Of a stretch of 64,000 nt of DNA, positions 46,486 through 57,885 are shown one piece after another. A model generated the notes under the pieces. It worked only from the letters and a program-made list of their open reading frames with translations, was not told where the DNA came from and made no database searches. Position 1 is the first letter of the stretch. Each line of letters opens with the position of its first letter. Origin of the DNA: a virus; IMG/VR virus record IMGVR_UViG_3300023184_000081, positions 1 through 64,000 of that record. One strand, given 5' to 3'. A program made the position numbers and the translations under genes.

Positions 46486-47082
46486 ATGAAAATTAATATA
46501 ATTGATTCTGCATCATCAGATGACGAACTTCCAGAACATCTTGGAGGTCATCTAAATAAAACCCATGTAGACGAAGGCGCTCTAGATTTTCTAATTGAAA
46601 ATTTTGATATCGCAACAATGCTAGATATTGGATGCGGTCCTGGCGGAATGCTAGATCTAGCTCACAATCGAGGAATTCATTCTGTTGGTCTAGATGGAGA
46701 CTATACTCTCCCTCGGAGACGGAATGTTCATATTCACGACTTCACGACTGGACCGTTTTTAAATTGGGAAAATAACGATATTGAATTTGATCTCGGCTGG
46801 TCTGTAGAATTTCTAGAACATGTAGAATCTAAATATGTTCCAGTGATCATGCACGCATTTCAACGATGCAAACTTTTGATGGTTACTGCTGCACCTCCTG
46901 GTTATACTGGACATCATCACGTGAACTGCAGAAATCTAGATTATTGGGAAGGTGCATTTAATGCTAGTGGATTCTATTATGATGCAGAAATGACAACAAA
47001 AATCATTGAGGCATCCTCTATGAAAAAACCATTCTTGCAAATGCATGGAATGTTCTATCGGAGATTTCATTATGACAATTAG
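46486..47082 (+). CDS. SAM-dependent methyltransferase
   Basis: LDIGCGPG, EFLEHV, GHHHVN. Confidence 0.85.
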   Translation: MKINIIDSASSDDELPEHLGGHLNKTHVDEGALDFLIENFDIATMLDIGCGPGGMLDLAHNRGIHSVGLDGDYTLPRRRNVHIHDFTTGPFLNWENNDIEFDLGWSVEFLEHVESKYVPVIMHAFQRCKLLMVTAAPPGYTGHHHVNCRNLDYWEGAFNASGFYYDAEMTTKIIEASSMKKPFLQMHGMFYRRFHYDN

Positions 47083-47791
47083 ACTGTTCATCGGAACATC
47101 TGCTAATGGTGAGGATACAGATGCAGAAATGGTATATGAACATTCACTAAGAAAGAACAGTTCTGTTCCCATAGATATCACATGGATGCGTCAAACAAAT
47201 GATAAGTCTAGTGTGTGGGGTGGTTGGGATACTTCTCTATGGCCAACACCATTCAGTGGCTATCGTTGGGCGATACCTGAAGTTTGTAATTTTGAGGGTC
47301 GTGCAATTTACACAGACGTAGACATGATTAATTTCAGAGATCTGAATGAGCTATGGAATATTGATCTTGGAGATAACTGGGTTGGTGCTCGTCTTGGTCC
47401 AAGATTTGGTGGACACGAATTCTGTGTTATGGTTATCGACTGTGCTTCGATGAAAGGAGAGATTGCGTCGATAGAAAGAATGAAAGTTATTCCAGAATCA
47501 CATTCCAGATATATTCGTGCATTCAGCGGAAGTGAAGTTATAAAGAGTATTGATCCAAGATGGAATTGTCTAGACGGAGACGATCTAAAAATAGAAGATA
47601 TGTGGCAACTTCATTATTCTAGAATGAGCACTCAGCCATGGCGTCCCACTTGGTATACTGGAGAAAGTGCTGATCATCCTCGTCCAGAGTTAGTTAAACT
47701 TTGGTTTGATTATCGTGATAAGCTCTTAGAAGAAGGACACAAACCTAATGTAGTCAACAATAGTGTAACATATGATTTTATAGGCAAATGA
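47072..47791 (+). CDS. GT8-like glycosyltransferase
   Basis: FIG, TPFSGYRW.IP, AIYTDVDM, RWN.LD, LHY…QPW. Confidence 0.75.
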   Translation: MTIRLFIGTSANGEDTDAEMVYEHSLRKNSSVPIDITWMRQTNDKSSVWGGWDTSLWPTPFSGYRWAIPEVCNFEGRAIYTDVDMINFRDLNELWNIDLGDNWVGARLGPRFGGHEFCVMVIDCASMKGEIASIERMKVIPESHSRYIRAFSGSEVIKSIDPRWNCLDGDDLKIEDMWQLHYSRMSTQPWRPTWYTGESADHPRPELVKLWFDYRDKLLEEGHKPNVVNNSVTYDFIGK

Positions 47792-48552
47792 TGATAAACT
47801 GGAATGTAATTGGCGAGCGTCCTAGAAAATTTTGTCTATTCACTTCGTGTGATCCTAAGTATCTAGATGCACATGCTCAAGCATATATTTCTTCTTGTGC
47901 TAAAGCTGAAAATAACGTTCATCTTCATGTAATCAATGCAAGTGTGAATGACTGGACATATATGCAAACTCTTAAGATGGGATATAAACTTATGTTCCCG
48001 TCTGGTGAAATGACTATATCTTCAGAGGATACAGATCTACCAACGATCTCTGATGAACAGAAACGAACATATTATGCGTGTAATAGATTCATTTTTGCTT
48101 CTTCAATAATCACTCAGCCAATGTTGATTACAGATATTGACTGTTTGATAATGAAACATATAAATCCTCTGGAAACAGATCTTGGAATATTTCTTCGAGA
48201 GCCACTTCCAGGCGTTAATGACTGGGAGAAAGAAGGATCTAGAGTAGCTGCAGGCGCAGTCTTTGTTAAAGAAACTGCAAAAGAATTTTTAGAAGGCGCT
48301 GCTCAGATTATTCTAGATAACGAATGGAGATGGTTTTTAGATCAGAACGCATTGAATGTTTCGTATCAACATTTCAAAACTAAATACACATGCACTGCGT
48401 TCGGAACAGATTTTATGGATTGGGAATTTATTGACGGAACTACGATCTGGACTGGAAAGGGAGATAGAAAATACAGCAATCCGAAGTATCTTGGTATGAA
48501 GAAACACTATTATGATGCATTTCCTAAACTCTCTGAGGAATATTGGTTATGA
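47788..48552 (+). CDS. Putative nucleotide-sugar transferase
   Basis: YYAC.RF, TDIDC (DxD), AGAV, WFLDQ. Confidence 0.6.
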   Translation: MMINWNVIGERPRKFCLFTSCDPKYLDAHAQAYISSCAKAENNVHLHVINASVNDWTYMQTLKMGYKLMFPSGEMTISSEDTDLPTISDEQKRTYYACNRFIFASSIITQPMLITDIDCLIMKHINPLETDLGIFLREPLPGVNDWEKEGSRVAAGAVFVKETAKEFLEGAAQIILDNEWRWFLDQNALNVSYQHFKTKYTCTAFGTDFMDWEFIDGTTIWTGKGDRKYSNPKYLGMKKHYYDAFPKLSEEYWL

Positions 48553-49547
48553 AAAAAGTTTTACTGCTATCGCCCAGATTAGATTGCATGTTTAAGAAGG
48601 GTCCGGTTCCTTCTGAAATCGGCTCAATCGCACCAATCAGAAAGCACTGGAGGAATTTTATAGAACGAGTCATATCTGAATATTCCAACAGAACTGATGT
48701 TTCATTTAAAGTTCTAGAACTGCCGCTCTGGCAGTTCACTCCAGAACTTGTTAATGAACTCAAGCCTGATATTGTATTCGTTCCGCATAAAGAAGCGCAC
48801 AGCTTTCCTGTAGAAAACTGCGAAGTGTATTACTATATGCAAACTGCATTTCCGTGGATGTTTTCAGTAGATCGAAAAGGATGGGGTGCTGGATCATCTA
48901 AATATCCGTTCGACCGCAGATATATCGGCACTGCTCAAGACGCATATAACGGAGCCGACATATTTAACATGCTTCAAAGTCGCATGAACGACAATCAGAG
49001 TAAATTTGAACAGCCAATTTATCAGAGCAGAGAAAAGATAAATCTACCTGATTACTACGCATTTTTCCCCTGTCAGATTCCACACGACGAAACAATTAAG
49101 TTTCATTCCGACGTCACTGTGGAAGAAGCATTAGAAAGAACTTGTATAGCGACTCAAGAAATAGGAATGAATTTAGTTGTAAAAGGTCATCCTGTCAATC
49201 CTGGTAGTATGCAATCATTAAAAGAAATCGCCAAAAAATATCTGCATGTTACTTGGTATGATGATGTATCCATCCATCAATTGATTCAGACTGCTCGCTG
49301 CACAGTGACAGTAAACTCTGGCGTCGGATTCGAATCTCTTTTGCATAAAGTTCCAGTTGTAACATTCGGAAGATCAGAATATGACTGCGTTACATATAAA
49401 GTGAATAGCAATACAGATCTCGCAAAAACTATAAAATTAGCAAGCCATAGCGTTTTCAACTATGAAGAAGTATGTGATTTCTACAATAACTGGTGGAAAT
49501 ATTGTTACGACTCAAAGAACGGAGATGATTTCACGAAACTGCCATAA
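48549..49547 (+). CDS. Capsule-polysaccharide (KpsS/KpsC-like) glycosyltransferase
   Basis: Q.PHD, VKGHP, TVNSGVGFESLL. Confidence 0.75.
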   Translation: MKKVLLLSPRLDCMFKKGPVPSEIGSIAPIRKHWRNFIERVISEYSNRTDVSFKVLELPLWQFTPELVNELKPDIVFVPHKEAHSFPVENCEVYYYMQTAFPWMFSVDRKGWGAGSSKYPFDRRYIGTAQDAYNGADIFNMLQSRMNDNQSKFEQPIYQSREKINLPDYYAFFPCQIPHDETIKFHSDVTVEEALERTCIATQEIGMNLVVKGHPVNPGSMQSLKEIAKKYLHVTWYDDVSIHQLIQTARCTVTVNSGVGFESLLHKVPVVTFGRSEYDCVTYKVNSNTDLAKTIKLASHSVFNYEEVCDFYNNWWKYCYDSKNGDDFTKLP

Positions 49548-49553
49548 TAAATC

Positions 49554-49582
49554 TTGACAATTCATTATAAATAGGGTATAAT
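49554..49582 (+). promoter_or_regulatory. Composite promoter: sigma70 promoter with late TATAAATA inside its spacer
   Basis: TTGACA (49554) … TATAAATA (49566) … TATAAT (49577), 17-nt spacer. Confidence 0.75.
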
Positions 49583-49630
49583 ACGTGTTCGAATGAAGTT
49601 CCTTTTTAAATTAAAAGTATTGGAGAAAAT

Positions 49631-50338
49631 ATGAAGAAAATTATTTTTGCACTATTGTTTGTAAGCGGTATTGCACAAGCGCAAGTAACTGGTAATGTTG
49701 GAGTGACTTCCGACTATCGTTTCCGTGGCATCAGTCAAACACAAAATTCACAAGCTCTACAAGGCGGAATTGATTATTCTCATAAGAGTGGATTCTATGT
49801 TGGCAACTGGAATAGCAGCGTCAGTAGTCTTGTTTATACCGACAGCATCGGTCTAGAAAATGACGTTTATGGTGGCTTTAAGAAAGAACTTTTTAAGGGC
49901 GTAACCGTCGACGTAGGATCGTATAATTATTACTTTTCGCGTTCTGGCAATGCTTTCAACAGCAATAGCAATACACATGAAGTCTATGCTGGAGTTTCGA
50001 CAGGTCCGGTAAGTTTCAAGTATAGTCAGTCTCTTGGTGATTACTTCGCCGTTGCTAATAGCAAAGGAACGAAATATGTTCAAGCTGATCTGAATATGCC
50101 TATCATAGAAAAACTAACGGGTAATGTTCATTTTGGTCACGCTTTTATTGCAAATCATAAAGATAGCAATTTTACTGATATCAAACTTGGCGCAACTTAC
50201 AATATTGTTGGTGTAGATGTAGGCGCGCACTATTACACAAATCGTGGAATGACAGCTGCCACAAAATTAGCTGATACAGTTTCTGGAGAAAAACTCTACA
50301 AAAACGCATTTGTCTTTTCTGTAGCGAAATCATTCTAA
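49631..50338 (+). CDS. TorF-family putative outer-membrane porin
   Basis: Signal peptide, SDYRFRGISQT, QGGIDY…GFYVGNW.S, C-terminal Phe. Confidence 0.85.
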   Translation: MKKIIFALLFVSGIAQAQVTGNVGVTSDYRFRGISQTQNSQALQGGIDYSHKSGFYVGNWNSSVSSLVYTDSIGLENDVYGGFKKELFKGVTVDVGSYNYYFSRSGNAFNSNSNTHEVYAGVSTGPVSFKYSQSLGDYFAVANSKGTKYVQADLNMPIIEKLTGNVHFGHAFIANHKDSNFTDIKLGATYNIVGVDVGAHYYTNRGMTAATKLADTVSGEKLYKNAFVFSVAKSF

Positions 50339-50391: not shown

Positions 50392-50420
50392 TTGATGATT
50401 TTAAATGACCAAAATACGCC

Positions 50421-50449
50421 TTGACATTTAATCTGATATGACTTATAAT
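50421..50449 (+). promoter_or_regulatory. Sigma70 promoter of the tRNA operon
   Basis: TTGACA-N17-TATAAT. Confidence 0.88.
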
Positions 50450-50482
50450 AGTTGTATATTAAATGGTAGCACAAGCAGTAAC

Positions 50483-50494
50483 TGCTCTTTAAAA
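50483..50494 (+). promoter_or_regulatory. rrn-type boxA antitermination element
   Basis: TGCTCTTTAAAA vs consensus TGCTCTTTAACA, between promoter and first tRNA. Confidence 0.7.
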
Positions 50495-50508
50495 ATTTGG
50501 AAAATAGT

Positions 50509-50583
50509 GTCCTGTTTGACTTCTGGTGAGGTCACCACCCTTTCACGGTGGCAAGAGGGGTTCGAATCCCCTACAGGACGCCA
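50509..50583 (+). tRNA. tRNA-Glu(TTC)
   Basis: Cloverleaf, CT-TTC-AC loop, TTCGAAT, CCA. Confidence 0.92.
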
Positions 50584-50703
50584 TATTGAAGCGCATTATT
50601 GTCTATTTCGGCGTTCCTCCGATGGGTCAGAGTGTTTATATAGACACCCTGATAAGGAAAACAGTATCCATTGACAAGATATTGGTAGTGCGTTTCAATA
50701 TGG
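50581..50703 (+). ncRNA. Structured RNA cassette 1 closed by a 20-bp stem
   Basis: CCATATTGAAGCGCATTATT / GGTAGTGCGTTTCAATATGG, with internal hairpins. Confidence 0.6.
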
Positions 50704-50832
50704 TAACATGCAACAGCATGAGAGTAACGTGATACTGGCCAGTAAGCGTTCGGACATGCAATATCTCAAAGCGGAAAGTCATGAGTCCGTAGAGAAAAAG
50801 ATTTCGGTTCGATTCCGAATTGCGTGTGACCA
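50702..50832 (+). ncRNA. tRNA-like RNA (acceptor stem, T arm, CCA, enlarged core)
   Basis: CATGCAA/TTGCGTG stem, TTCGG-TTCGATT-CCGAA T arm, 3' ACCA; no canonical anticodon arm. Confidence 0.55.
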
Positions 50833-50838
50833 TATTAC

Positions 50839-50912
50839 GCGGGATTAGTTAAATGGTATAATTAGAGTTTTCCAAACTCCAGTCATCAGTTCGATTCTGA
50901 TATTCCGCTCCA
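50839..50912 (+). tRNA. tRNA-Gly(TCC)
   Basis: Cloverleaf, TT-TCC-AA, CCA. Confidence 0.9.
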
Positions 50913-50920
50913 TTTGTTGT

Positions 50921-50994
50921 TGGGGATTAGTTAAATGGTATAACCGCGGATTTTGATTCCGCTATCACAAGTTCGATTCTTGTATCCCCTGCCA
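50921..50994 (+). tRNA. tRNA-Gln(TTG)
   Basis: Cloverleaf, TT-TTG-AT, CCA. Confidence 0.9.
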
Positions 50995-51024
50995 GAAAAT
51001 TTTATTTAACAGAAAGGAAATTGT

Positions 51025-51057
51025 ATGAAGCGAAAATCCAAAACACGCAAGACATAG
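51025..51057 (+). CDS. Micro-ORF MKRKSKTRKT inside the tRNA operon
   Basis: GAAAGGAAA RBS, ATG, TAG overlapping the first base of tRNA-Lys. Confidence 0.45.
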   Translation: MKRKSKTRKT

Positions 51058-51133
51058 GGAGTGTGGTGTAAAGGCTTGCACAACGGACTTTTAATCCGCT
51101 AAGAGTTAGGTTCGATTCCTACCACTCCCACCA
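51057..51133 (+). tRNA. tRNA-Lys(TTT)
   Basis: Cloverleaf, CT-TTT-AA, CCA. Confidence 0.85.
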
Positions 51134-51208
51134 TATGAAAACACATTCTTTAAGGTCTTGGTCGTTACCAGCCTGGCAAAAACGACGACAGAGTGTGTTT
51201 CCATATAG
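51131..51208 (+). ncRNA. Structured RNA cassette 2 (long hairpin)
   Basis: CCATATGAAAACACATTCT / AGAGTGTGTTTCCATATAG plus inner GTCGTT/AACGAC stem. Confidence 0.55.
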
Positions 51209-51216
51209 TAGAAAAA

Positions 51217-51308
51217 GGAGAGTAATGCAGCGGGGTTGGTCCTGCGACCAGCCTTGAAAACTGGGTTCTGAGAAATCGGATGGGGTTCGACTCCTCTGCT
51301 CTCCGCCA
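51217..51308 (+). tRNA. tRNA-Ser(TGA)
   Basis: CT-TGA-AA loop, long variable arm, GCCA. Confidence 0.85.
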
Positions 51309-51314
51309 ATTTTT

Positions 51315-51390
51315 GACTCGTTAGCTCAATCGGAAGAGCACATGCCTGTCACGCATGAGGTAAGGGGATCGAAACCCCTACGGGTCGCCA
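51315..51390 (+). tRNA. tRNA-Asp(GTC)
   Basis: Cloverleaf, CT-GTC-AC, GCCA. Confidence 0.92.
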
Positions 51391-51398
51391 AGAATTAC

Positions 51399-51492
51399 GG
51401 AGATTTGGCTGAGCATGGTTTAAGGCAGCGGATTGCTAATCCGTCGATCGAGGAAACTTGATCCATTGGTTCGAATCCAATAATCTCCGCCA
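51399..51492 (+). tRNA. tRNA-Ser(GCT)
   Basis: TT-GCT-AA, long variable arm, GCCA. Confidence 0.92.
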
Positions 51493-51506
51493 GAATTAAA
51501 AGTTTT

Positions 51507-51602
51507 GCTCCCCAGCACTCGGCGTGCGGCATGCCCTTATAAAGCGTGGAGACTGGTCAGATAGGCTGGAACGGGAAGGTTCAAAACCTTCGGGGAGTAC
51601 CA
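51507..51602 (+). tRNA. Atypical tRNA, anticodon TAT (nominal Ile), long variable arm
   Basis: GCTCCCC/GGGGAGT acceptor, CT-TAT-AA loop, ~27-nt variable region, GAAGG-TTCAAAA-CCTTC, ACCA. Confidence 0.6.
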
Positions 51603-51607
51603 AATTT

Positions 51608-51685
51608 GGTGAGGTGGCAGAGTGGTCAAATGCAAGAGCCTGCAAAACTCTAAAATCGTCGGTTCGAATCCGACCCTCACTTCCA
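51608..51685 (+). tRNA. tRNA-Cys(GCA)
   Basis: CT-GCA-AA, U discriminator, CCA. Confidence 0.92.
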
Positions 51686-51690
51686 AACTT

Positions 51691-51765
51691 GCCCTGTTAG
51701 TTCTAGTGGTAAAACGTCGGTTTTGTAATCCGAATTCGGGTGTTCGATTCACCCACGGGGCACCA
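51691..51765 (+). tRNA. tRNA-Thr(TGT)
   Basis: TT-TGT-AA, ACCA. Confidence 0.9.
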
Positions 51766-51772
51766 AAGAAAT

Positions 51773-51865
51773 GGAAGTATTGATGCTATGGCGTGTGCAT
51801 CCCGAGACTGTAAATCTCGTCCCTCAGGGTAAACATTACTGGTTCGACTCCAGTTACTTCCACCA
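51773..51865 (+). tRNA. tRNA-Tyr(GTA)
   Basis: CT-GTA-AA, long variable arm, ACCA. Confidence 0.88.
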
Positions 51866-51872
51866 GATTTAT

Positions 51873-51947
51873 TCCTCGATAGCTCAGCGGTAGAGCAGTT
51901 GACTGTTAATCAATTGGTCCGTGGTTCGATCCCACGTCGAGGAGCCA
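51873..51947 (+). tRNA. tRNA-Asn(GTT)
   Basis: Canonical cloverleaf, CT-GTT-AA, GCCA. Confidence 0.95.
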
Positions 51948-51956
51948 GTATCAAAA

Positions 51957-52032
51957 CGGTGTGTAGCTCAGCTGGTAGAGTGCGTGGTTTGGGACCATGA
52001 GGTCGGGAGTTCGAAACTCTCCACACCGACCA
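51957..52032 (+). tRNA. tRNA-Pro(TGG)
   Basis: C1-G72, TT-TGG-GA, ACCA. Confidence 0.93.
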
Positions 52033-52037
52033 GAATT

Positions 52038-52124
52038 GCAAGTGTGATGGAACAGGTATACATAAGAGACTTAAAATCTCTCGCTCGCAAGGGCATGCGG
52101 GTTCGATTCCCGCCACTTGCACCA
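52038..52124 (+). tRNA. tRNA-Leu(TAA)
   Basis: CT-TAA-AA, long variable arm, ACCA. Confidence 0.93.
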
Positions 52125-52140
52125 TAGTGATTCAGTATTT

Positions 52141-52216
52141 GGGGGTGTAGCTCAGTTGGGAGAGCGTATGCTTTGCAAGCATAATGTCGTCGGTTCGATC
52201 CCGTCCATCTCCACCA
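52141..52216 (+). tRNA. tRNA-Ala(TGC)
   Basis: G3-U70, TT-TGC-AA, ACCA. Confidence 0.93.
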
Positions 52217-52224
52217 GATTTAAT

Positions 52225-52298
52225 GCCTCGGTAGTTTAACGGTAAAACGCCATCCTTACACGGTGGATTCGGGAGTTCAACTCTCCAACGAGGTACCA
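52225..52298 (+). tRNA. tRNA-Val(TAC)
   Basis: CT-TAC-AC, ACCA; mismatches at acceptor/T junction. Confidence 0.82.
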
Positions 52299-52307
52299 AA
52301 AAGTTTT

Positions 52308-52384
52308 GCCCCGGTGACGGAATTGGCATACGTGTCGGTCTTAGAAGCCGAATTTTAGGAGTTCGAGTCTCCTCTGGGGCACCA
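52308..52384 (+). tRNA. tRNA-Leu(TAG) with short variable arm
   Basis: CT-TAG-AA, Leu-type D loop, ~5-nt variable region, ACCA. Confidence 0.85.
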
Positions 52385-52549
52385 TAAGTAACTGCATTGG
52401 TAAGGAAAGACAATGTTCATAGACTCTCGAGGGAATATGTTCATACCTCCGCTGCAGCGGAGAAAAGGAGGATGGGCAAGCGATGATTTGGGGATTTTAG
52501 ACATCTCCTCTAGCTGGATACCCCACCTGCCAGTGCAGTTTCTTATGGT
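52381..52549 (+). ncRNA. Structured RNA cassette 3 closed by a 19/20-bp stem
   Basis: ACCATAAGTAACTGCATTGG / CCAGTGCAGTTTCTTATGGT; internal CTCCGCTGCAGCGGAG palindrome. Confidence 0.6.
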
Positions 52550-52622
52550 AATGTAGCATAGTGACTAATGCAGTTCCTTCATACGGAAAAGATCGTTGGT
52601 TTGAGTCCAACCATTACTACCA
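52547..52622 (+). tRNA. tRNA with CAT anticodon (elongator Met or Ile2)
   Basis: TT-CAT-AC, ACCA; lacks initiator hallmarks. Confidence 0.78.
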
Positions 52623-52629
52623 AATTTTT

Positions 52630-52706
52630 GCGCCCATAGCTCAGTGGATTAGAGCCAACGGTTTCTACCCGTTAGGTCGGCAGTTCGAATCTGTCTGGGC
52701 GCACCA
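52630..52706 (+). tRNA. tRNA-Arg(TCT)
   Basis: TT-TCT-AC, ACCA. Confidence 0.92.
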
Positions 52707-52712
52707 GTATTT

Positions 52713-52788
52713 ACCATCTTAGCTCAGCGGTAGTAGCAGTGTGTTGATAACGCATTGGTCAGTGGTTCGATCCCACTAGATGGTACCA
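52713..52788 (+). tRNA. tRNA-Ile(GAT)
   Basis: TT-GAT-AA, ACCA. Confidence 0.9.
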
Positions 52789-52793
52789 AATTT

Positions 52794-52867
52794 CTCGGTG
52801 TAGTATAATGGCATTACGGCAGCCTCCAAATCTGCTTATGGGAGTTCGATTCTCTCCGCCGGGGCCA
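52794..52867 (+). tRNA. tRNA-Trp(CCA)
   Basis: CT-CCA-AA, GCCA. Confidence 0.88.
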
Positions 52868-52869
52868 AT

Positions 52870-52945
52870 ATCTCTATAACTCAGCGGACAGAGTTCTTCG
52901 GTCCTAACGAAGCGGTCGCAAGTTCGAATCTTGCTAGGGATGCCA
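52870..52945 (+). tRNA. tRNA-Arg(CCT)
   Basis: GT-CCT-AA, GCCA. Confidence 0.85.
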
Positions 52946-52950
52946 GTTTT

Positions 52951-53028
52951 AGATGGAGAGCTAGTCTGGTGATTCAGCGCGTGCCTGAAGAGCATGAGAA
53001 CTCAGTTCGATTCTGAGTCCATCTACCA
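52951..53028 (+). tRNA. tRNA-Phe(GAA)
   Basis: CT-GAA-GA, ACCA. Confidence 0.85.
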
Positions 53029-53037
53029 AAGAACAAT

Positions 53038-53111
53038 GGTGTTGTTAATGTAATGGTTGCATAACTGTCTGTGAAACAGTTAGAGAGGGTTCGATTCCCC
53101 ACTTCACCCCA
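53038..53111 (+). tRNA. tRNA-His(GTG), imperfect acceptor/T stems
   Basis: G-1, CT-GTG-AA, CCCA; two U-U mismatches and a short T stem. Confidence 0.7.
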
Positions 53112-53119
53112 ATAAATAT

Positions 53120-53196
53120 CGGTCCTTAACTCAATTGGATAGAGTGCCAGTCTTCGAAACTGGAGGTTGGGAGTTCGAGTCTCTCAGGATCGGCCA
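53120..53196 (+). tRNA. tRNA-Arg(TCG)
   Basis: CT-TCG-AA, GCCA. Confidence 0.88.
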
Positions 53197-53219
53197 ATAT
53201 TTTAATGAAAGGAGTTTGT

Positions 53220-53690
53220 ATGAAGAAATTAAATTTGCAAGAGGTTAAAACATTTATAGAAGCGCAAACTCCATCGACCAAAATTTATCTAGGTTGTGAT
53301 TCTGAAAAGTATAAAGCGAATGGTCAATGGTATGCAGATTATATCTTAGCAATTGTTGTGCATATCGACGGATGTCATGGTTGCAAAATCTTCGGTGAAG
53401 TTCACACTGAAAAAGACTATGATGCTAAGGCTAGCAAGCCATCGCTCAGATTGATGCAGGAAGTTTATAAAGTGGCAGAACTTTATCTGAAACTCGGCGA
53501 AGTATTAGAAGGTCGCGATGTAGAAGTGCATCTAGATATTAATCCGGATATGGAATATGGCAGCAGCTGCGTTATCAATCAAGCAGTTGGTTACATAAAA
53601 GGAATGTGTAATGTCATTCCTCTTGTAAAACCCAATGCTTTTGCTGCCAGCTATGCTGCAGATAGACTAAAAAGCATAAGAGTCGCATAA
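53220..53690 (+). CDS. RNase H-like protein (YkuK/DUF458-like)
   Basis: GCDS, RLMQEV, VHLDIN, A..AAD; AAGGAG RBS. Confidence 0.75.
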   Translation: MKKLNLQEVKTFIEAQTPSTKIYLGCDSEKYKANGQWYADYILAIVVHIDGCHGCKIFGEVHTEKDYDAKASKPSLRLMQEVYKVAELYLKLGEVLEGRDVEVHLDINPDMEYGSSCVINQAVGYIKGMCNVIPLVKPNAFAASYAADRLKSIRVA

Positions 53691-55708: not shown

Positions 55709-55924
55709 ATGAAGACGCCTGCATTTGGAACAAAAGGATACATAATTTTATGTGTAGACGGAAAGTATCGATTTAGAGTCTATACAGAAAAAGATTTTAT
55801 TGATTACGATTTAGCTCACAGCGATTTATGCGTAGAGATAGTGGATAAAGATGCGACTTTTTATTCAGACGATCGCGGCGACAGATTGGATCACAACCCC
55901 TCAACATTAGGATATGACGAATGA
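55709..55924 (+). CDS. Hypothetical protein
   Basis: Likely start MKTPAF at 55709. Confidence 0.5.
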   Translation: MKTPAFGTKGYIILCVDGKYRFRVYTEKDFIDYDLAHSDLCVEIVDKDATFYSDDRGDRLDHNPSTLGYDE

Positions 55925-56427
55925 GTAATTATAAAACACACGCAATAAACGAATTCCGTGCTGCAGGATGGATGGATCAGAATGGTAAATACCTTGATGA
56001 GATGCAAGAAATGATATGTAATCATGTTCTTGCTCTATTAGATGTTTTTGCCGATGAAGGACATTCTGGCACCACTGCGCCATACACTATCGAATTGTTC
56101 TCTAAATTAGCAAAGTTTGATCCGATTGTTCCATTGACTGGTGAGGACTGGGAATGGAGTGAAGTGTCTGATGGCGACAATGGAAAAATGTATCAGAACA
56201 AACGATGCGGTGCTGTATTTAAAGACGCAAATCGACATGATGGACAACCATATTATCTTGATGGCAAAGTGTTTTGGGAATGGTATAAGAGTGAAGATGG
56301 TGAAATGTCTAAGTCATATTTCACAAGTGCCGATTCTCAAGAGCCTATTGTATTTCCCTACACACCAAAGTCGGAGTATGTGTTTAGGGCAACAGAACAA
56401 TTTCCAAATGAGGAAATTACAAAATGA
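55921..56427 (+). CDS. Conserved phage hypothetical protein
   Basis: GHSG..APY, PLTGE..EW, QNKRC..VFK. Confidence 0.7.
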   Translation: MSNYKTHAINEFRAAGWMDQNGKYLDEMQEMICNHVLALLDVFADEGHSGTTAPYTIELFSKLAKFDPIVPLTGEDWEWSEVSDGDNGKMYQNKRCGAVFKDANRHDGQPYYLDGKVFWEWYKSEDGEMSKSYFTSADSQEPIVFPYTPKSEYVFRATEQFPNEEITK

Positions 56428-57255: not shown

Positions 57256-57825
57256 ATGCCTTCAGTATTTTTAATCGCAGATACACATTTCGGACATAAA
57301 GGAATGTGTACGTTTACGCGAAATGATGGAATTACAAAACTTAGACCATTTGATACGCCTGAAGAAATGGACGAATTCATGGTCAAAGCATGGAATGATA
57401 AAGTGAAGCCTACTGATAAAGTATATCATCTTGGCGATGTCGTCATCAATAAAAAGTCTTTGTCTATTATGGATAGACTCAATGGCGATAAAGTTCTGAT
57501 TCGAGGCAACCATGATATCTTTCATGACACGGAATACAGAAAATACTTTCGTGAACTTCGTGCGTATCATGTTATGAACGGAATGATTCTGAGTCATATT
57601 CCTATTCATGATGAAAGTCTTGGTCGATTCGGAACTAACATTCATGGACATCTACACGCAAATCGCGTAAAGAAGAATGGCGAAATTGATGTTAGATATC
57701 ATTGTGTATCAGCCGAGCATGTAGATTTTACTCCGATTCTTTTTGAAGACGTTATCAAACGCATTGTAGAAGAAGGTGGACATGTCGGTTTCAAAAATGG
57801 GAATTATCAAAGCCCTGCTAGTTAA
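57256..57825 (+). CDS. Calcineurin-like metallophosphoesterase
   Basis: DTHFGH, LGD, GNHD, HGHLH. Confidence 0.9.
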   Translation: MPSVFLIADTHFGHKGMCTFTRNDGITKLRPFDTPEEMDEFMVKAWNDKVKPTDKVYHLGDVVINKKSLSIMDRLNGDKVLIRGNHDIFHDTEYRKYFRELRAYHVMNGMILSHIPIHDESLGRFGTNIHGHLHANRVKKNGEIDVRYHCVSAEHVDFTPILFEDVIKRIVEEGGHVGFKNGNYQSPAS

Positions 57826-57885
57826 ATGGCATAACGATCAATTTGTAGTGATCAGTAGGCAGTTCGATTCTGTCACAGGGTATCT
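57812..57885 (+). pseudogene. Degenerate tRNA (Thr-TGT-like) overlapping a stop codon
   Basis: GCCCTG/CAGGGT acceptor, D arm, GATCA/TGATC with 8-nt loop, GGCAG-TTCGATT-CTGTC; no CCA. Confidence 0.6.

What the first reader, a model, noticed from the sequence alone, without database searches (positions are those of the whole stretch)
50581..52549. Three non-tRNA RNA cassettes in the tRNA operon, each closed by a related ~20-bp stem that starts at the upstream tRNA's CCA
Seen: 50581-50703 (20/20 bp with G-U pairs), 51131-51208 (17/19) and 52381-52549 (19/20). The 5' strands CCATATTGAAGCGCATT, CCATATGAAAACACATT and CCATAAGTAACTGCATT share a pattern, as do the 3' strands AGTGCGTTTCAATATGG, AGTGTGTTTCCATATAG and AGTGCAGTTTCTTATGG, with compensatory changes. 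The enclosed sequences (~85, ~40, ~130 nt) are unrelated but structured. In cassettes 1 and 3 the stem also takes in the first bases of the next tRNA or tRNA-like RNA. Inference: a reusable processing stem (RNase III-like, as in rrn operons) releases different small RNA cargos from the tRNA transcript and/or gates tRNA end maturation. I do not recognise a described family.
Basis: partly seen in the sequence, partly recalled or inferred. Interest (0 to 1): 0.8.

Follow-up and report, generated by a model that had tools for sequence, protein, structure and literature searches.

The report
RNase III-type clamp stems in phage tRNA operon
Three non-tRNA inserts in this uncultured lake phage's tRNA operon are each closed by the same double-stranded RNA stem, a member of a large phage-only family absent from Rfam and the searched literature, whose base pairs resemble a known cutting site of the host enzyme RNase III, so it probably serves as a "cut here" adaptor that frees tRNAs and swappable small RNAs.

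Summary
Three 17-20 bp stems lie at 50581-50703, 51131-51208 and 52382-52548. Each starts on the CCA of the tRNA before it. Two end on G1G2 of the next RNA.

The pairing is at RNA level on the tRNA strand: 95.7% of cells pair, 11 of 18 pairs show compensatory changes, and 0 of 500 shuffles reach this. G-U pairs favour the tRNA strand.

The family looks phage-only. It hit 5 small MAG contigs, 4 of them tRNA-dense, among 185,579 species genomes, no isolate phage, no Rfam family, and no paper was found.

The upper stem carries the distal box (U-A, U.G) and proximal-box positions 2-3 (A-U, A-U) of the T7 R1.1 / E. coli RNase III site, with the same spacing. That predicts staggered cuts between stem positions 7 and 8. 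No cleavage is shown, the host is unknown, and two box positions deviate.

Cargo is very diverse (142 clusters) and moves between tRNA contexts. This window's three cargos do not fold better than shuffles.

This scan has already reported the same family on other DNA at least eight times.

The parts
50421..50449 (+). Consensus sigma-70 promoter (TTGACA-17-TATAAT, 12/12), 59 nt upstream of the first tRNA. Likely start of the tRNA/cassette transcript.
50508..50583 (+). tRNA-Glu(UUC). Its CCA (50581-50583) forms stem positions 1-3 of cassette 1.
   Evidence: Rfam tRNA, 49 bits; anticodon read
50581..50703 (+). Cassette 1. 5' arm 50581-50597, cargo 50598-50686, 3' arm 50687-50703. Position 8 is G-C. 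The stem extends to 19-20 bp. Predicted RNase III cuts: 50587|50588 and 50698|50699.
   Evidence: cut register
50697..50836 (+). Module X: a 140-nt CCA-ended tRNA-like RNA with a T-arm (Rfam tRNA 25 bits, below threshold). It is closed by its own 16/17 stem, which re-uses the AUAUGG of cassette 1 and a downstream CCAUAU. It is conserved in L097, where a cassette lies on each side.
51057..51133 (+). tRNA-Lys(UUU). Its CCA (51131-51133) forms stem positions 1-3 of cassette 2.
51131..51208 (+). Cassette 2. 5' arm 51131-51147, cargo 51148-51191, 3' arm 51192-51208. C.A mismatch at position 2 and A.C at position 8. Predicted cuts: 51137|51138 and 51203|51204. The cargo has a 91% identical homologue in L016, with compensatory changes in the stem.
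51216..51305 (+). Type II tRNA-Ser(UGA)-like gene, 7 nt after cassette 2. ARAGORN missed it. It is 85-96% identical to copies in more than 30 other contigs.
   Evidence: (tRNA-Sec model, 34.9 bits)
52308..52384 (+). tRNA-Leu(UAG). Its CCA (52382-52384) forms stem positions 1-3 of cassette 3.
52382..52548 (+). Cassette 3. 5' arm 52382-52398, cargo 52399-52531, 3' arm 52532-52548. U.U at position 8. The last GG (52547-52548) is G1G2 of tRNA-Met. Predicted cuts: 52388|52389 and 52543|52544.
52547..52622 (+). tRNA-Met(CAU). Its first two bases are shared with the 3' arm of cassette 3.
53205..53690 (+). Gene for a PF04308 (YkuK/DUF458) RNase H-like protein, directly after the array. It is a conserved resident of these phages' tRNA arrays and a candidate alternative processing nuclease. 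The link to the stems is unproven.

Best explanation
**What it is.** The three stems are members of an undescribed, phage-specific RNA family. The family is a constant helix of about 17-20 bp (consensus 5' CCAUAUAAAAACACAUU ... AGUGUGUUUCUAUAUGG 3') that closes a variable insert inside phage tRNA operons.

**How it most likely works.**
1. The operon is transcribed by host RNA polymerase from the consensus promoter at 50421-50449 (inferred).
2. The helix forms in the precursor, often taking in the CCA of the tRNA before it and G1G2 of the RNA after it (shown by sequence and covariation).
3. Host RNase III recognises it as an R1.1-like site and makes a staggered cut between stem positions 7 and 8 on the 5' arm and between 12' and 13' on the 3' arm (inferred by register with T7 R1.1; not shown).
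4. That cut would leave three products:
   - the upstream tRNA with a 4-nt trailer, for 3' exonucleases to trim;
   - the downstream tRNA with a 3-nt leader, for RNase P;
   - the insert as a separate RNA capped by a 10-bp stem with a 2-nt 3' overhang.

**Role.** The stem therefore acts as a universal 'cut here' adaptor. It lets RNAs that RNase P cannot recognise ride in a tRNA transcript. What the inserts do is unknown.
For: **RNA-level helix on the tRNA strand.**
- 95.7% of cells pair, against 87.4% in shuffles.
- 11 of 18 pairs change on both sides; 208 compensatory cells against 59; 0 of 500 shuffles reach this.
- Slid controls pair at 29-62%.
- G-U to mismatch counts are 138:83 on the + strand and 64:157 on the - strand. 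For elements caught incidentally they are 90:44 and 28:106.

**Family size and location.**
- 191 unique elements in 120 IMG/VR loci plus the window.
- 88% lie within 150 nt of a tRNA, where only 33% of the bases lie.

**RNase III determinants.**
- In the T7 genome, the R1.1 upper stem reads AAGGUCAUUC/GAGUGGCCUU.
- PMC1540722 defines the distal box as U-A then U.G (the U.G is stringently required), followed by 4 bp, then the proximal box: position 1 G-C, position 2 A-U or U-A, position 3 A-U, position 4 A-U or U-A. The cut lies next to proximal-box position 4.
- All three window stems have U17-A, U16.G, 4 bp, then A-U at positions 10 and 9, with the weak or odd pair at position 8.
- The U.G is kept in 83% of elements although an A would give a Watson-Crick pair.
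- At proximal-box position 2, none of 72 incidentally caught elements has G-C or C-G, while neighbouring positions do.
- C14-G and A15-U also match R1.1, so CAUU/AGUG is identical over 4 bp.

**Other support.**
- Five 'empty' stems with a 4-11 nt loop show that the helix is kept without cargo.
- No phage RNase III (PF14622) in this record or in 4 relatives, 2 of them complete, so a host enzyme would be used.
- Consensus sigma-70 promoter upstream.
- Precedent: RNase III releases the tRNA in the E. coli metY-nusA-infB transcript (reference 46 in PMC5371410).
Against: - No cleavage or RNA end has been observed.
- The host is unknown. PMC1540722 itself notes that distal-box recognition may differ between RNase III orthologues.
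- Proximal-box position 1 is A-U, G.U or C-G here, not the preferred G-C.
- Position 8 is G-C in cassette 1 and in about 22% of the family. That pair lowers cleavage 14-fold at proximal-box position 4 of uR1.1.
- Natural E. coli sites mostly do not match the consensus (PMC5371410), so a match is suggestive rather than diagnostic.
- Positions 1-6, 9-10 and 14-17 of the 5' arm were fixed by my retrieval pattern in 120 of the elements.
- High sequence constancy could also come from recombination or recent spread.
- A conserved RNase H-like gene sits in or next to these arrays and could be the real partner.
Confidence: 0.55

Rival explanations
1. The stem is not cut. RNase P cleavage at the next tRNA, plus 3' end processing at the CCA, releases the whole hairpin. 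The constant helix is then an exonuclease-proof clamp and/or a docking site for a protein, in the way the Y RNA stem binds Ro, and it presents the variable cargo.
For: - In 63 of 165 CCA-anchored elements the 3' arm ends on G1G2 or G-1 of the next tRNA, so the two tRNA ends alone would excise a hairpin with a 1-nt overhang.
- The conserved U.G and A.C irregularities would suit sequence-specific protein binding.
- 98% of the tRNAs here encode their CCA.
Against: - A stable helix that abuts the CCA would block the 3' exonucleases that normally finish CCA-encoded tRNAs, so some endonuclease is still needed.
- Many elements do not abut a tRNA on either side.
- The spacing of the conserved pairs fits the RNase III boxes.
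- The YrlA model does not match any cassette.
Confidence: 0.2
2. A phage-encoded nuclease cuts the stems, not host RNase III. The candidate is the PF04308 (YkuK/DUF458) RNase H-like protein encoded in or next to these tRNA arrays.
For: - The gene follows the array directly in this window (53205-53690).
- 29 of 120 cassette-bearing stretches contain a homologue, often between tRNA genes.
- It is present in 4 of 5 records searched, including both complete genomes.
- The family is an uncharacterised member of the RNase H1 endonuclease clade (PMC3985635).
Against: - Close relatives carry the gene next to arrays that have no cassettes (L129-L135).
- One cassette-bearing record, 74% complete, lacks it.
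- No known RNase H-like enzyme of this clade cuts dsRNA hairpins.
- No biochemical data exist for the family.
Confidence: 0.1
3. The arms are terminal inverted repeats of a DNA-level mobile or recombining element (MITE-like). The RNA helix is a by-product with no processing role.
For: - The arms are near-palindromic.
- The same cargo cluster occurs behind different tRNAs, and different cargos occur behind the same tRNA: 142 clusters among 186 cargos.
- In pairs with homologous cargo, the lower stem matches in 18/23 when the upstream tRNA is the same but only 15/35 when it differs. This hints at exchange points inside the stem.
- Related arrays exist with and without cassettes.
Against: - Departures from perfect pairing are G-U on the tRNA strand, which would be C-A on the other strand, so selection acts on the transcript.
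- Compensatory changes keep the pairing.
- Elements are almost confined to tRNA operons and to one orientation.
- No transposase was seen and no target duplication was noted.
- Shuffling by homologous recombination is compatible with the RNA function and does not replace it.
Confidence: 0.07

Closest known systems
Phage T7 R1.1 RNase III processing signal and its minimal form uR1.1 (Pertzev & Nicholson 2006, PMC1540722)
   Same: - A hairpin helix in a phage polycistronic transcript.
- Identical CAUU/AGUG block that includes the distal box (U-A, U.G).
- Four base pairs, then A-U, A-U at proximal-box positions 2 and 3.
- A weak or unpaired position where the R1.1 internal loop and cut lie.
   Different: - Sits between tRNAs, not mRNAs.
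- The top of the helix holds 4-211 nt of variable RNA instead of a tetraloop.
- Proximal-box position 1 is not G-C, and position 4 is often A.C or G-C.
- Many copies per genome and hundreds of variants.
- Cleavage is untested.
RNase III processing stalks of rRNA operons, and RNase III-excised intervening sequences of 23S rRNA
   Same: A long helix, formed by sequences on either side of an RNA, marks that RNA for release from a stable-RNA precursor. (From established knowledge; not retested here.)
   Different: - Here the helix sequence is constant and the enclosed RNA is variable and swappable.
- The helix is only 17-20 bp.
- It is usually anchored on a tRNA CCA end.
RNase III site downstream of tRNA metY in the E. 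coli metY-nusA-infB operon (Regnier & Grunberg-Manago 1989, as cited in PMC5371410)
   Same: An RNase III cut next to a tRNA separates that tRNA from the rest of the transcript.
   Different: A single cellular site that starts mRNA decay. It is not a repeated cassette with cargo.
Phage T4 stable RNAs rnaC (species 1) and rnaD (species 2) in the T4 tRNA operon
   Same: - Non-tRNA small RNAs are co-transcribed with phage tRNAs.
- T4 rnaC (139 nt, with a T-arm) resembles this window's module X in size and layout.
   Different: - The T4 RNAs have no R1.1-like clamp stem and no CCA-anchored helix.
- Sequence similarity to X is marginal.

Membership tests
E. coli-type RNase III site (T7 R1.1 / uR1.1 rules, PMC1540722) | Double helix of at least 11 bp between the cut and the distal end, and about two turns overall | tested here: met
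   17-20 bp stems. There are 10-12 bp from position 8 to the top, and position 18 is paired in 87% of the family.
E. coli-type RNase III site (T7 R1.1 / uR1.1 rules, PMC1540722) | Distal box: U-A followed by U.G, with U on the 5' strand | tested here: met
   U17-A and U16.G in all three cassettes. U.G occurs in 100/120 and 39/72 elements.
E. coli-type RNase III site (T7 R1.1 / uR1.1 rules, PMC1540722) | Proximal-box positions 2 and 3 are A-U (or U-A), with no G-C or C-G at position 2 | tested here: met
   A10-U and A9-U in all three. Position 10 is G-C or C-G in 0 of 72 elements not fixed by the retrieval pattern.
E. coli-type RNase III site (T7 R1.1 / uR1.1 rules, PMC1540722) | Proximal-box position 1 is G-C and position 4 is A-U or U-A | tested here: not met
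   Position 11 is G.U, A-U and C-G in cassettes 1 to 3. Position 8 is G-C (a catalytic antideterminant), A.C and U.U.
E. coli-type RNase III site (T7 R1.1 / uR1.1 rules, PMC1540722) | Cleavage by RNase III with 2-nt 3' overhangs | not testable with these tools
   The runs served are assembled contigs only and carry no end information.
Any Rfam 15 family | Covariance-model match to the stem or to a cargo | tested here: not met
   Only tRNA-clan hits in the array. Nothing falls on cassettes at E <= 1. The same holds for 11 related loci and for the 180-nt cargo.
MITE / terminal-inverted-repeat DNA element | Arms conserved as DNA regardless of strand, with insertions spread through the genome | tested here: not met
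   G-U to mismatch asymmetry favours the tRNA strand. 88% of elements lie within 150 nt of a tRNA. Only the three copies occur in the 64-kb window.
Bacterial Y RNA (YrlA) | Match to the YrlA model; a terminal stem plus a tRNA-like module | tested here: not met
   The only YrlA hit (26.9 bits, threshold 69) lies on the tRNA-Leu/Ala junction, not on a cassette.

The most novel reading that the evidence does not exclude
The constant stems serve two purposes. As RNA they are processing adaptors. As DNA they are short homology handles, through which related phages exchange a large library of small RNAs (at least 142 sequence clusters in my sample) in and out of their tRNA operons. That would make them an integron-like cassette system for non-coding RNAs. 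The cargos would then be under arms-race selection, for example as decoys or inhibitors of host tRNA-targeting or RNA-sensing defences. An anti-Thoeris Tad3 homologue lies 2.7 kb downstream.
Probability: 0.2. Interest if true: 0.85.

Novelty: new variant of a known kind. Interest (0 to 1): 0.66.

Why it matters
- **A new phage strategy.** If host RNase III does cut these stems, phages have a modular way to express arbitrary small RNAs from tRNA operons: one constant adaptor and hundreds of different inserts.
- **A catalogue of unstudied RNAs.** That would point to a large set of phage small RNAs. At least one cargo family of about 180 nt shows covariation.
- **A practical use.** The adaptor could serve as a natural design for releasing engineered RNAs from polycistronic transcripts.
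- **Annotation.** It would explain gaps that tRNA finders leave in phage tRNA arrays.
- **Testability.** The family is absent from Rfam and from the literature I could search. Simple in vitro cleavage assays would test the idea.

Tried and rejected
**Expression data.**
- Four lake metatranscriptome runs (Logan contigs) were laid on 50400-53250. Contigs matched tRNA genes and module X of relatives at 90-99% identity. Nothing lay on cargo 1 or the interior of cargo 3.
- Contigs carry no end information, so this says nothing about expression or cleavage.
- One RNA contig joins 50835 back to 50698. I read it as a relative in which X is followed by another cassette, as in L097, not as a circular RNA.

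**Homologues of this window's cargos.**
- For cargos 1 and 3: none in 120 + 42 fetched loci, and none for an exact 27-mer of cargo 3 in IMG/VR.
- For cargo 2: one homologue only (L016).

**Isolate phages.**
- megablast and blastn of the array find only tRNA matches.
- A consensus cassette finds nothing meaningful in 50,697 phage records.

**Literature.** Exact arm sequences and several keyword sets gave no description of the family.

**Other ideas tested.**
- 'Empty site' idea: the palindromic junction CCA-UAU-GG between tRNAs occurs only 10 times in 820 junctions, which is not informative.
- Homology of module X to T4 rnaC: only a short shared motif and the T-arm, so undecided.
- PDB sequence search with the PF04308 protein: no hit.
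- I first favoured the 'uncut clamp released by tRNA processing' reading. I demoted it after checking the R1.1 register.
Full report
**Observation.** The window comes from an 80-kb IMG/VR virus record estimated to be 43% complete. Positions 50508-53196 hold a + strand array of 23 ARAGORN tRNAs, behind a perfect sigma-70 consensus promoter at 50421-50449. Three gaps in the array hold the reported stems.
- 50581-50703 folds with 19-20 uninterrupted pairs (z = -6.1).
- 51131-51208 folds with 16 pairs and two mismatches (z = -3.3).
- 52381-52549 folds with 20 pairs and one U.U mismatch (z = -4.4).
- The 5' arms start at C74 of tRNA-Glu(UUC), tRNA-Lys(UUU) and tRNA-Leu(UAG).
- The 3' arm of cassette 3 ends on G1G2 of tRNA-Met (52547-52548).
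- The 3' arm of cassette 1 ends on the GG that opens a 140-nt tRNA-like RNA, called X here.
- A scan of the array for any 16/17-paired long-range helix returns these three and the closing stem of X. Shuffles give about one hit.
- In a 405-nt fold of tRNA-Glu, cassette 1, X and tRNA-Gly together, the cloverleaf and the full cassette stem coexist.

**A large family.** I scanned IMG/VR for a T-loop, 12 nt, then CCATAWNNAANNNCATT. In 128 of 132 matches the 17-nt arm has a partner with at least 15/17 pairs within 400 nt.
- After adding elements caught incidentally in the same loci, I had 191 unique elements. The consensus is CCAUAUAAAAACACAUU ... AGUGUGUUUCUAUAUGG.
- 88% lie within 150 nt of a tRNA gene, although only a third of the fetched bases do.
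- A two-armed pattern found only six stretches on five contigs among 185,579 species genomes. All were small MAG contigs. Four of the five are packed with tRNA genes and so look like mis-binned phage DNA; the fifth (L126) has no tRNA.
- Neither the array nor a consensus cassette matches any isolate phage beyond tRNAs.
- Rfam 15 has nothing on the stems or cargos, even at E <= 1.
- Searches for the arm sequences and for several keyword sets found no paper.
- Earlier notes of this scan describe the same family in at least eight other genomes. I treated those notes as leads only.

**It is an RNA structure.** On an alignment of 147 elements the helix is 95.7% paired, against 87.4% in shuffles.
- 11 of 18 pairs change on both sides, with 208 compensatory cells against 59. 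No shuffle of 500 reaches any measure, and slid registers pair at 29-62%.
- Departures from Watson-Crick pairing are G-U on the tRNA strand: 138 G-U to 83 mismatches, against 64 to 157 if read on the other strand. Elements not selected by my pattern give 90:44 against 28:106.
- This argues against a purely DNA-level inverted repeat.
- Caveat: positions 1-6, 9-10 and 14-17 of the 5' arm were fixed by the retrieval pattern in 120 elements. Conservation there is partly by construction. The 3' arm was never constrained.

**Relation to the tRNAs.** Among elements that follow a called tRNA, 163 of 165 start exactly at C74, and 63 end on G1G2 (or G-1) of the next tRNA.
- That is biased by how I searched. 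A scan seeded on the 3' arm shows that only 47% of independently found elements start with CCA, and 18% start on a called tRNA. The lower five pairs are still intact in 59 of 88.
- The L016 orthologue of cassette 2 starts 4 nt after the CCA. It has UU/AA where the window has CC/GG, and U-A where the window has G-C.
- Anchoring on the CCA is therefore common but not defining. I found no evidence that it gates tRNA maturation.
- Upstream neighbours are mostly tRNA-Lys(UUU), Glu(UUC) and Gln(UUG): 121 of 165. This may simply reflect a conserved array order.

**Mechanism.** The T7 genome gives the R1.1 upper stem as AAGGUCAUUC / GAGUGGCCUU.
- PMC1540722 defines an E. coli RNase III site within an 11-bp helix. 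The distal box is U-A then U.G, and the U.G is stringently required. Four base pairs follow. The proximal box is then G-C, A-U or U-A, A-U, A-U or U-A. The 5' strand cut lies next to proximal-box position 4, and the 3' strand cut lies 2 nt further on.
- The family stem reads U17-A, U16.G, A15-U, C14-G, two more pairs, then A11-U, A10-U, A9-U and A8.C.
- So both distal-box pairs, the next two pairs and proximal-box positions 2-3 are identical to R1.1. The conserved weak pair at position 8 sits where proximal-box position 4 and the R1.1 internal loop lie.
- The U.G is kept in 83% of elements although an A would pair better. Position 10 is never G-C or C-G in 72 unconstrained elements.
- By this register the cuts fall at 50587|50588 and 50698|50699, 51137|51138 and 51203|51204, and 52388|52389 and 52543|52544.
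- The products would be tRNA-CCA plus 4 nt, a 3-nt leader on the next RNA, and a cargo RNA capped by a 10-bp stem with a 2-nt overhang.
- No RNase III gene (PF14622) occurs in this record or in four relatives, two of them complete. A host enzyme would therefore do the cutting.
- Five stems with only a 4-11 nt loop show that the helix is kept for its own sake.

**Weak points.**
- Nothing shows cleavage.
- The host is unknown, and distal-box recognition may vary between orthologues.
- Proximal-box position 1 is not G-C.
- Cassette 1 and about 22% of the family have G-C at position 8, which lowers uR1.1 cleavage 14-fold.
- Natural E. coli sites rarely match the consensus (PMC5371410).

I put the RNase III adaptor reading at about 0.55.

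**Cargo.**
- Cargo length runs from 4 to 211 nt, with a median of 54. The 186 cargos of 20 nt or more fall into 142 sequence clusters.
- The same cluster is found behind different tRNAs.
- Among pairs with homologous cargo, the lower stem matches more often when the upstream tRNA is the same (18/23) than when it differs (15/35). This hints weakly at exchange within the stem, but relatedness confounds it.
- Related arrays next to the same flanking gene have either no cassettes or two.
- One cargo family of about 180 nt has 22 of 53 predicted pairs with compensatory changes and no Rfam match. Some cargos are therefore real structured RNAs.
- This window's three cargos do not fold better than shuffles (z = -1.07, +0.18, -0.36). 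Only cargo 2 has a homologue.

**Rivals.**
- *An uncut clamp released by RNase P and 3' trimming* (0.2) fits the tRNA-to-tRNA geometry. It leaves the CCA-abutting helix as a block to exonucleases, and it does not explain the box spacing.
- *A phage nuclease* (0.1). The gene directly after the array (53205-53690) is a PF04308/YkuK RNase H-like protein, from an uncharacterised family of the RNase H1 clade. Homologues lie in 29 of 120 cassette loci, often between tRNA genes, and in 4 of 5 records. They also lie next to arrays without cassettes.
- *A DNA-level mobile element* (0.07) is contradicted by the strand asymmetry. Recombination at the arms may still move cargos.

**Comparison and novelty.** The closest known things are the T7 R1.1 site, rRNA processing stalks and 23S intervening sequences, the RNase III site after tRNA metY, and the stable RNAs rnaC and rnaD of the T4 tRNA operon. 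The T4 RNAs lack any such stem. This family differs from all of these in three ways: one constant helix repeated within a genome and across more than 100 uncultured phages, highly variable and swappable inserts, and frequent fusion to tRNA ends. I class it as a new variant of a known kind of processing signal, in an RNA family that appears undescribed. The same family has already been reported by this scan on other DNA.

Noticed in passing
window 50697-50836: Module X is a 140-nt CCA-ended RNA with a T-arm and a 16/17 closing stem (AAUAUGGUAACAUGCAA / UUGCGUGUGACCAUAUU). The stem competes with cassette 1 for AUAUGG. X is conserved in L097 with stem covariation, and there it has a cassette on each side. 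In size and layout it recalls T4 rnaC, but homology is undecided.
   Followed up: partly
window 53205-53690: A PF04308 (YkuK/DUF458) RNase H-like gene directly follows the tRNA array. Homologues sit inside or beside the tRNA arrays of many related uncultured phages (29 of 120 loci; 36 syntenic loci). The family has no known function.
   Followed up: partly
window 51493-51607: A second tRNA-like gene that ARAGORN missed here has acceptor and T arms and a long variable arm. Its L097 homologue is called a type II tRNA with anticodon AUA. The loop could also be read as UAU (Ile). Homologues occur in at least 15 contigs.
   Followed up: partly
window 51026-51058: A 10-codon ORF (MKRKSKTRKT) with an AAGGA Shine-Dalgarno-like motif lies in the 62-nt Gln-Lys spacer of the tRNA array.
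   Followed up: no
window 55921-56427: Homologue of the Thoeris inhibitor Tad3 (PF25185, E = 3e-34), 2.7 kb downstream of the array, followed by a dCMP/cytidine deaminase gene.
   Followed up: no
window 46486-50338: Host-like envelope genes lie just upstream of the array: a methyltransferase, a weak glycosyltransferase-8 match, a capsule polysaccharide synthesis domain, and a Gcw_chp (PF09694) protein with a C-terminal Phe. This suggests a Gram-negative host.
   Followed up: no
L032:5825-6036 (-), L035:2928-3142, L121:4849-5064, L119:4116-4353 (-), L086:9655-9899 and others: A conserved cargo family of about 180-210 nt has invariant single-stranded motifs (ACAUGAAGCC, GUAAUGUGG). 22 of 53 predicted pairs covary, and there is no Rfam match. 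It looks like an undescribed structured phage RNA.
   Followed up: partly
120 IMG/VR loci (L002-L121): Cassettes follow tRNA-Lys(UUU), Glu(UUC) and Gln(UUG) in 121 of 165 cases. These are the three tRNAs with a modified wobble U that several anticodon nucleases target (from memory). This could be conserved gene order or something functional.
   Followed up: no
window 57812-57882: A weak tRNA-like hit (Rfam 34.4 bits; ARAGORN reports a 4-base anticodon) overlaps the end of a phosphoesterase gene (57256-57825).
   Followed up: no
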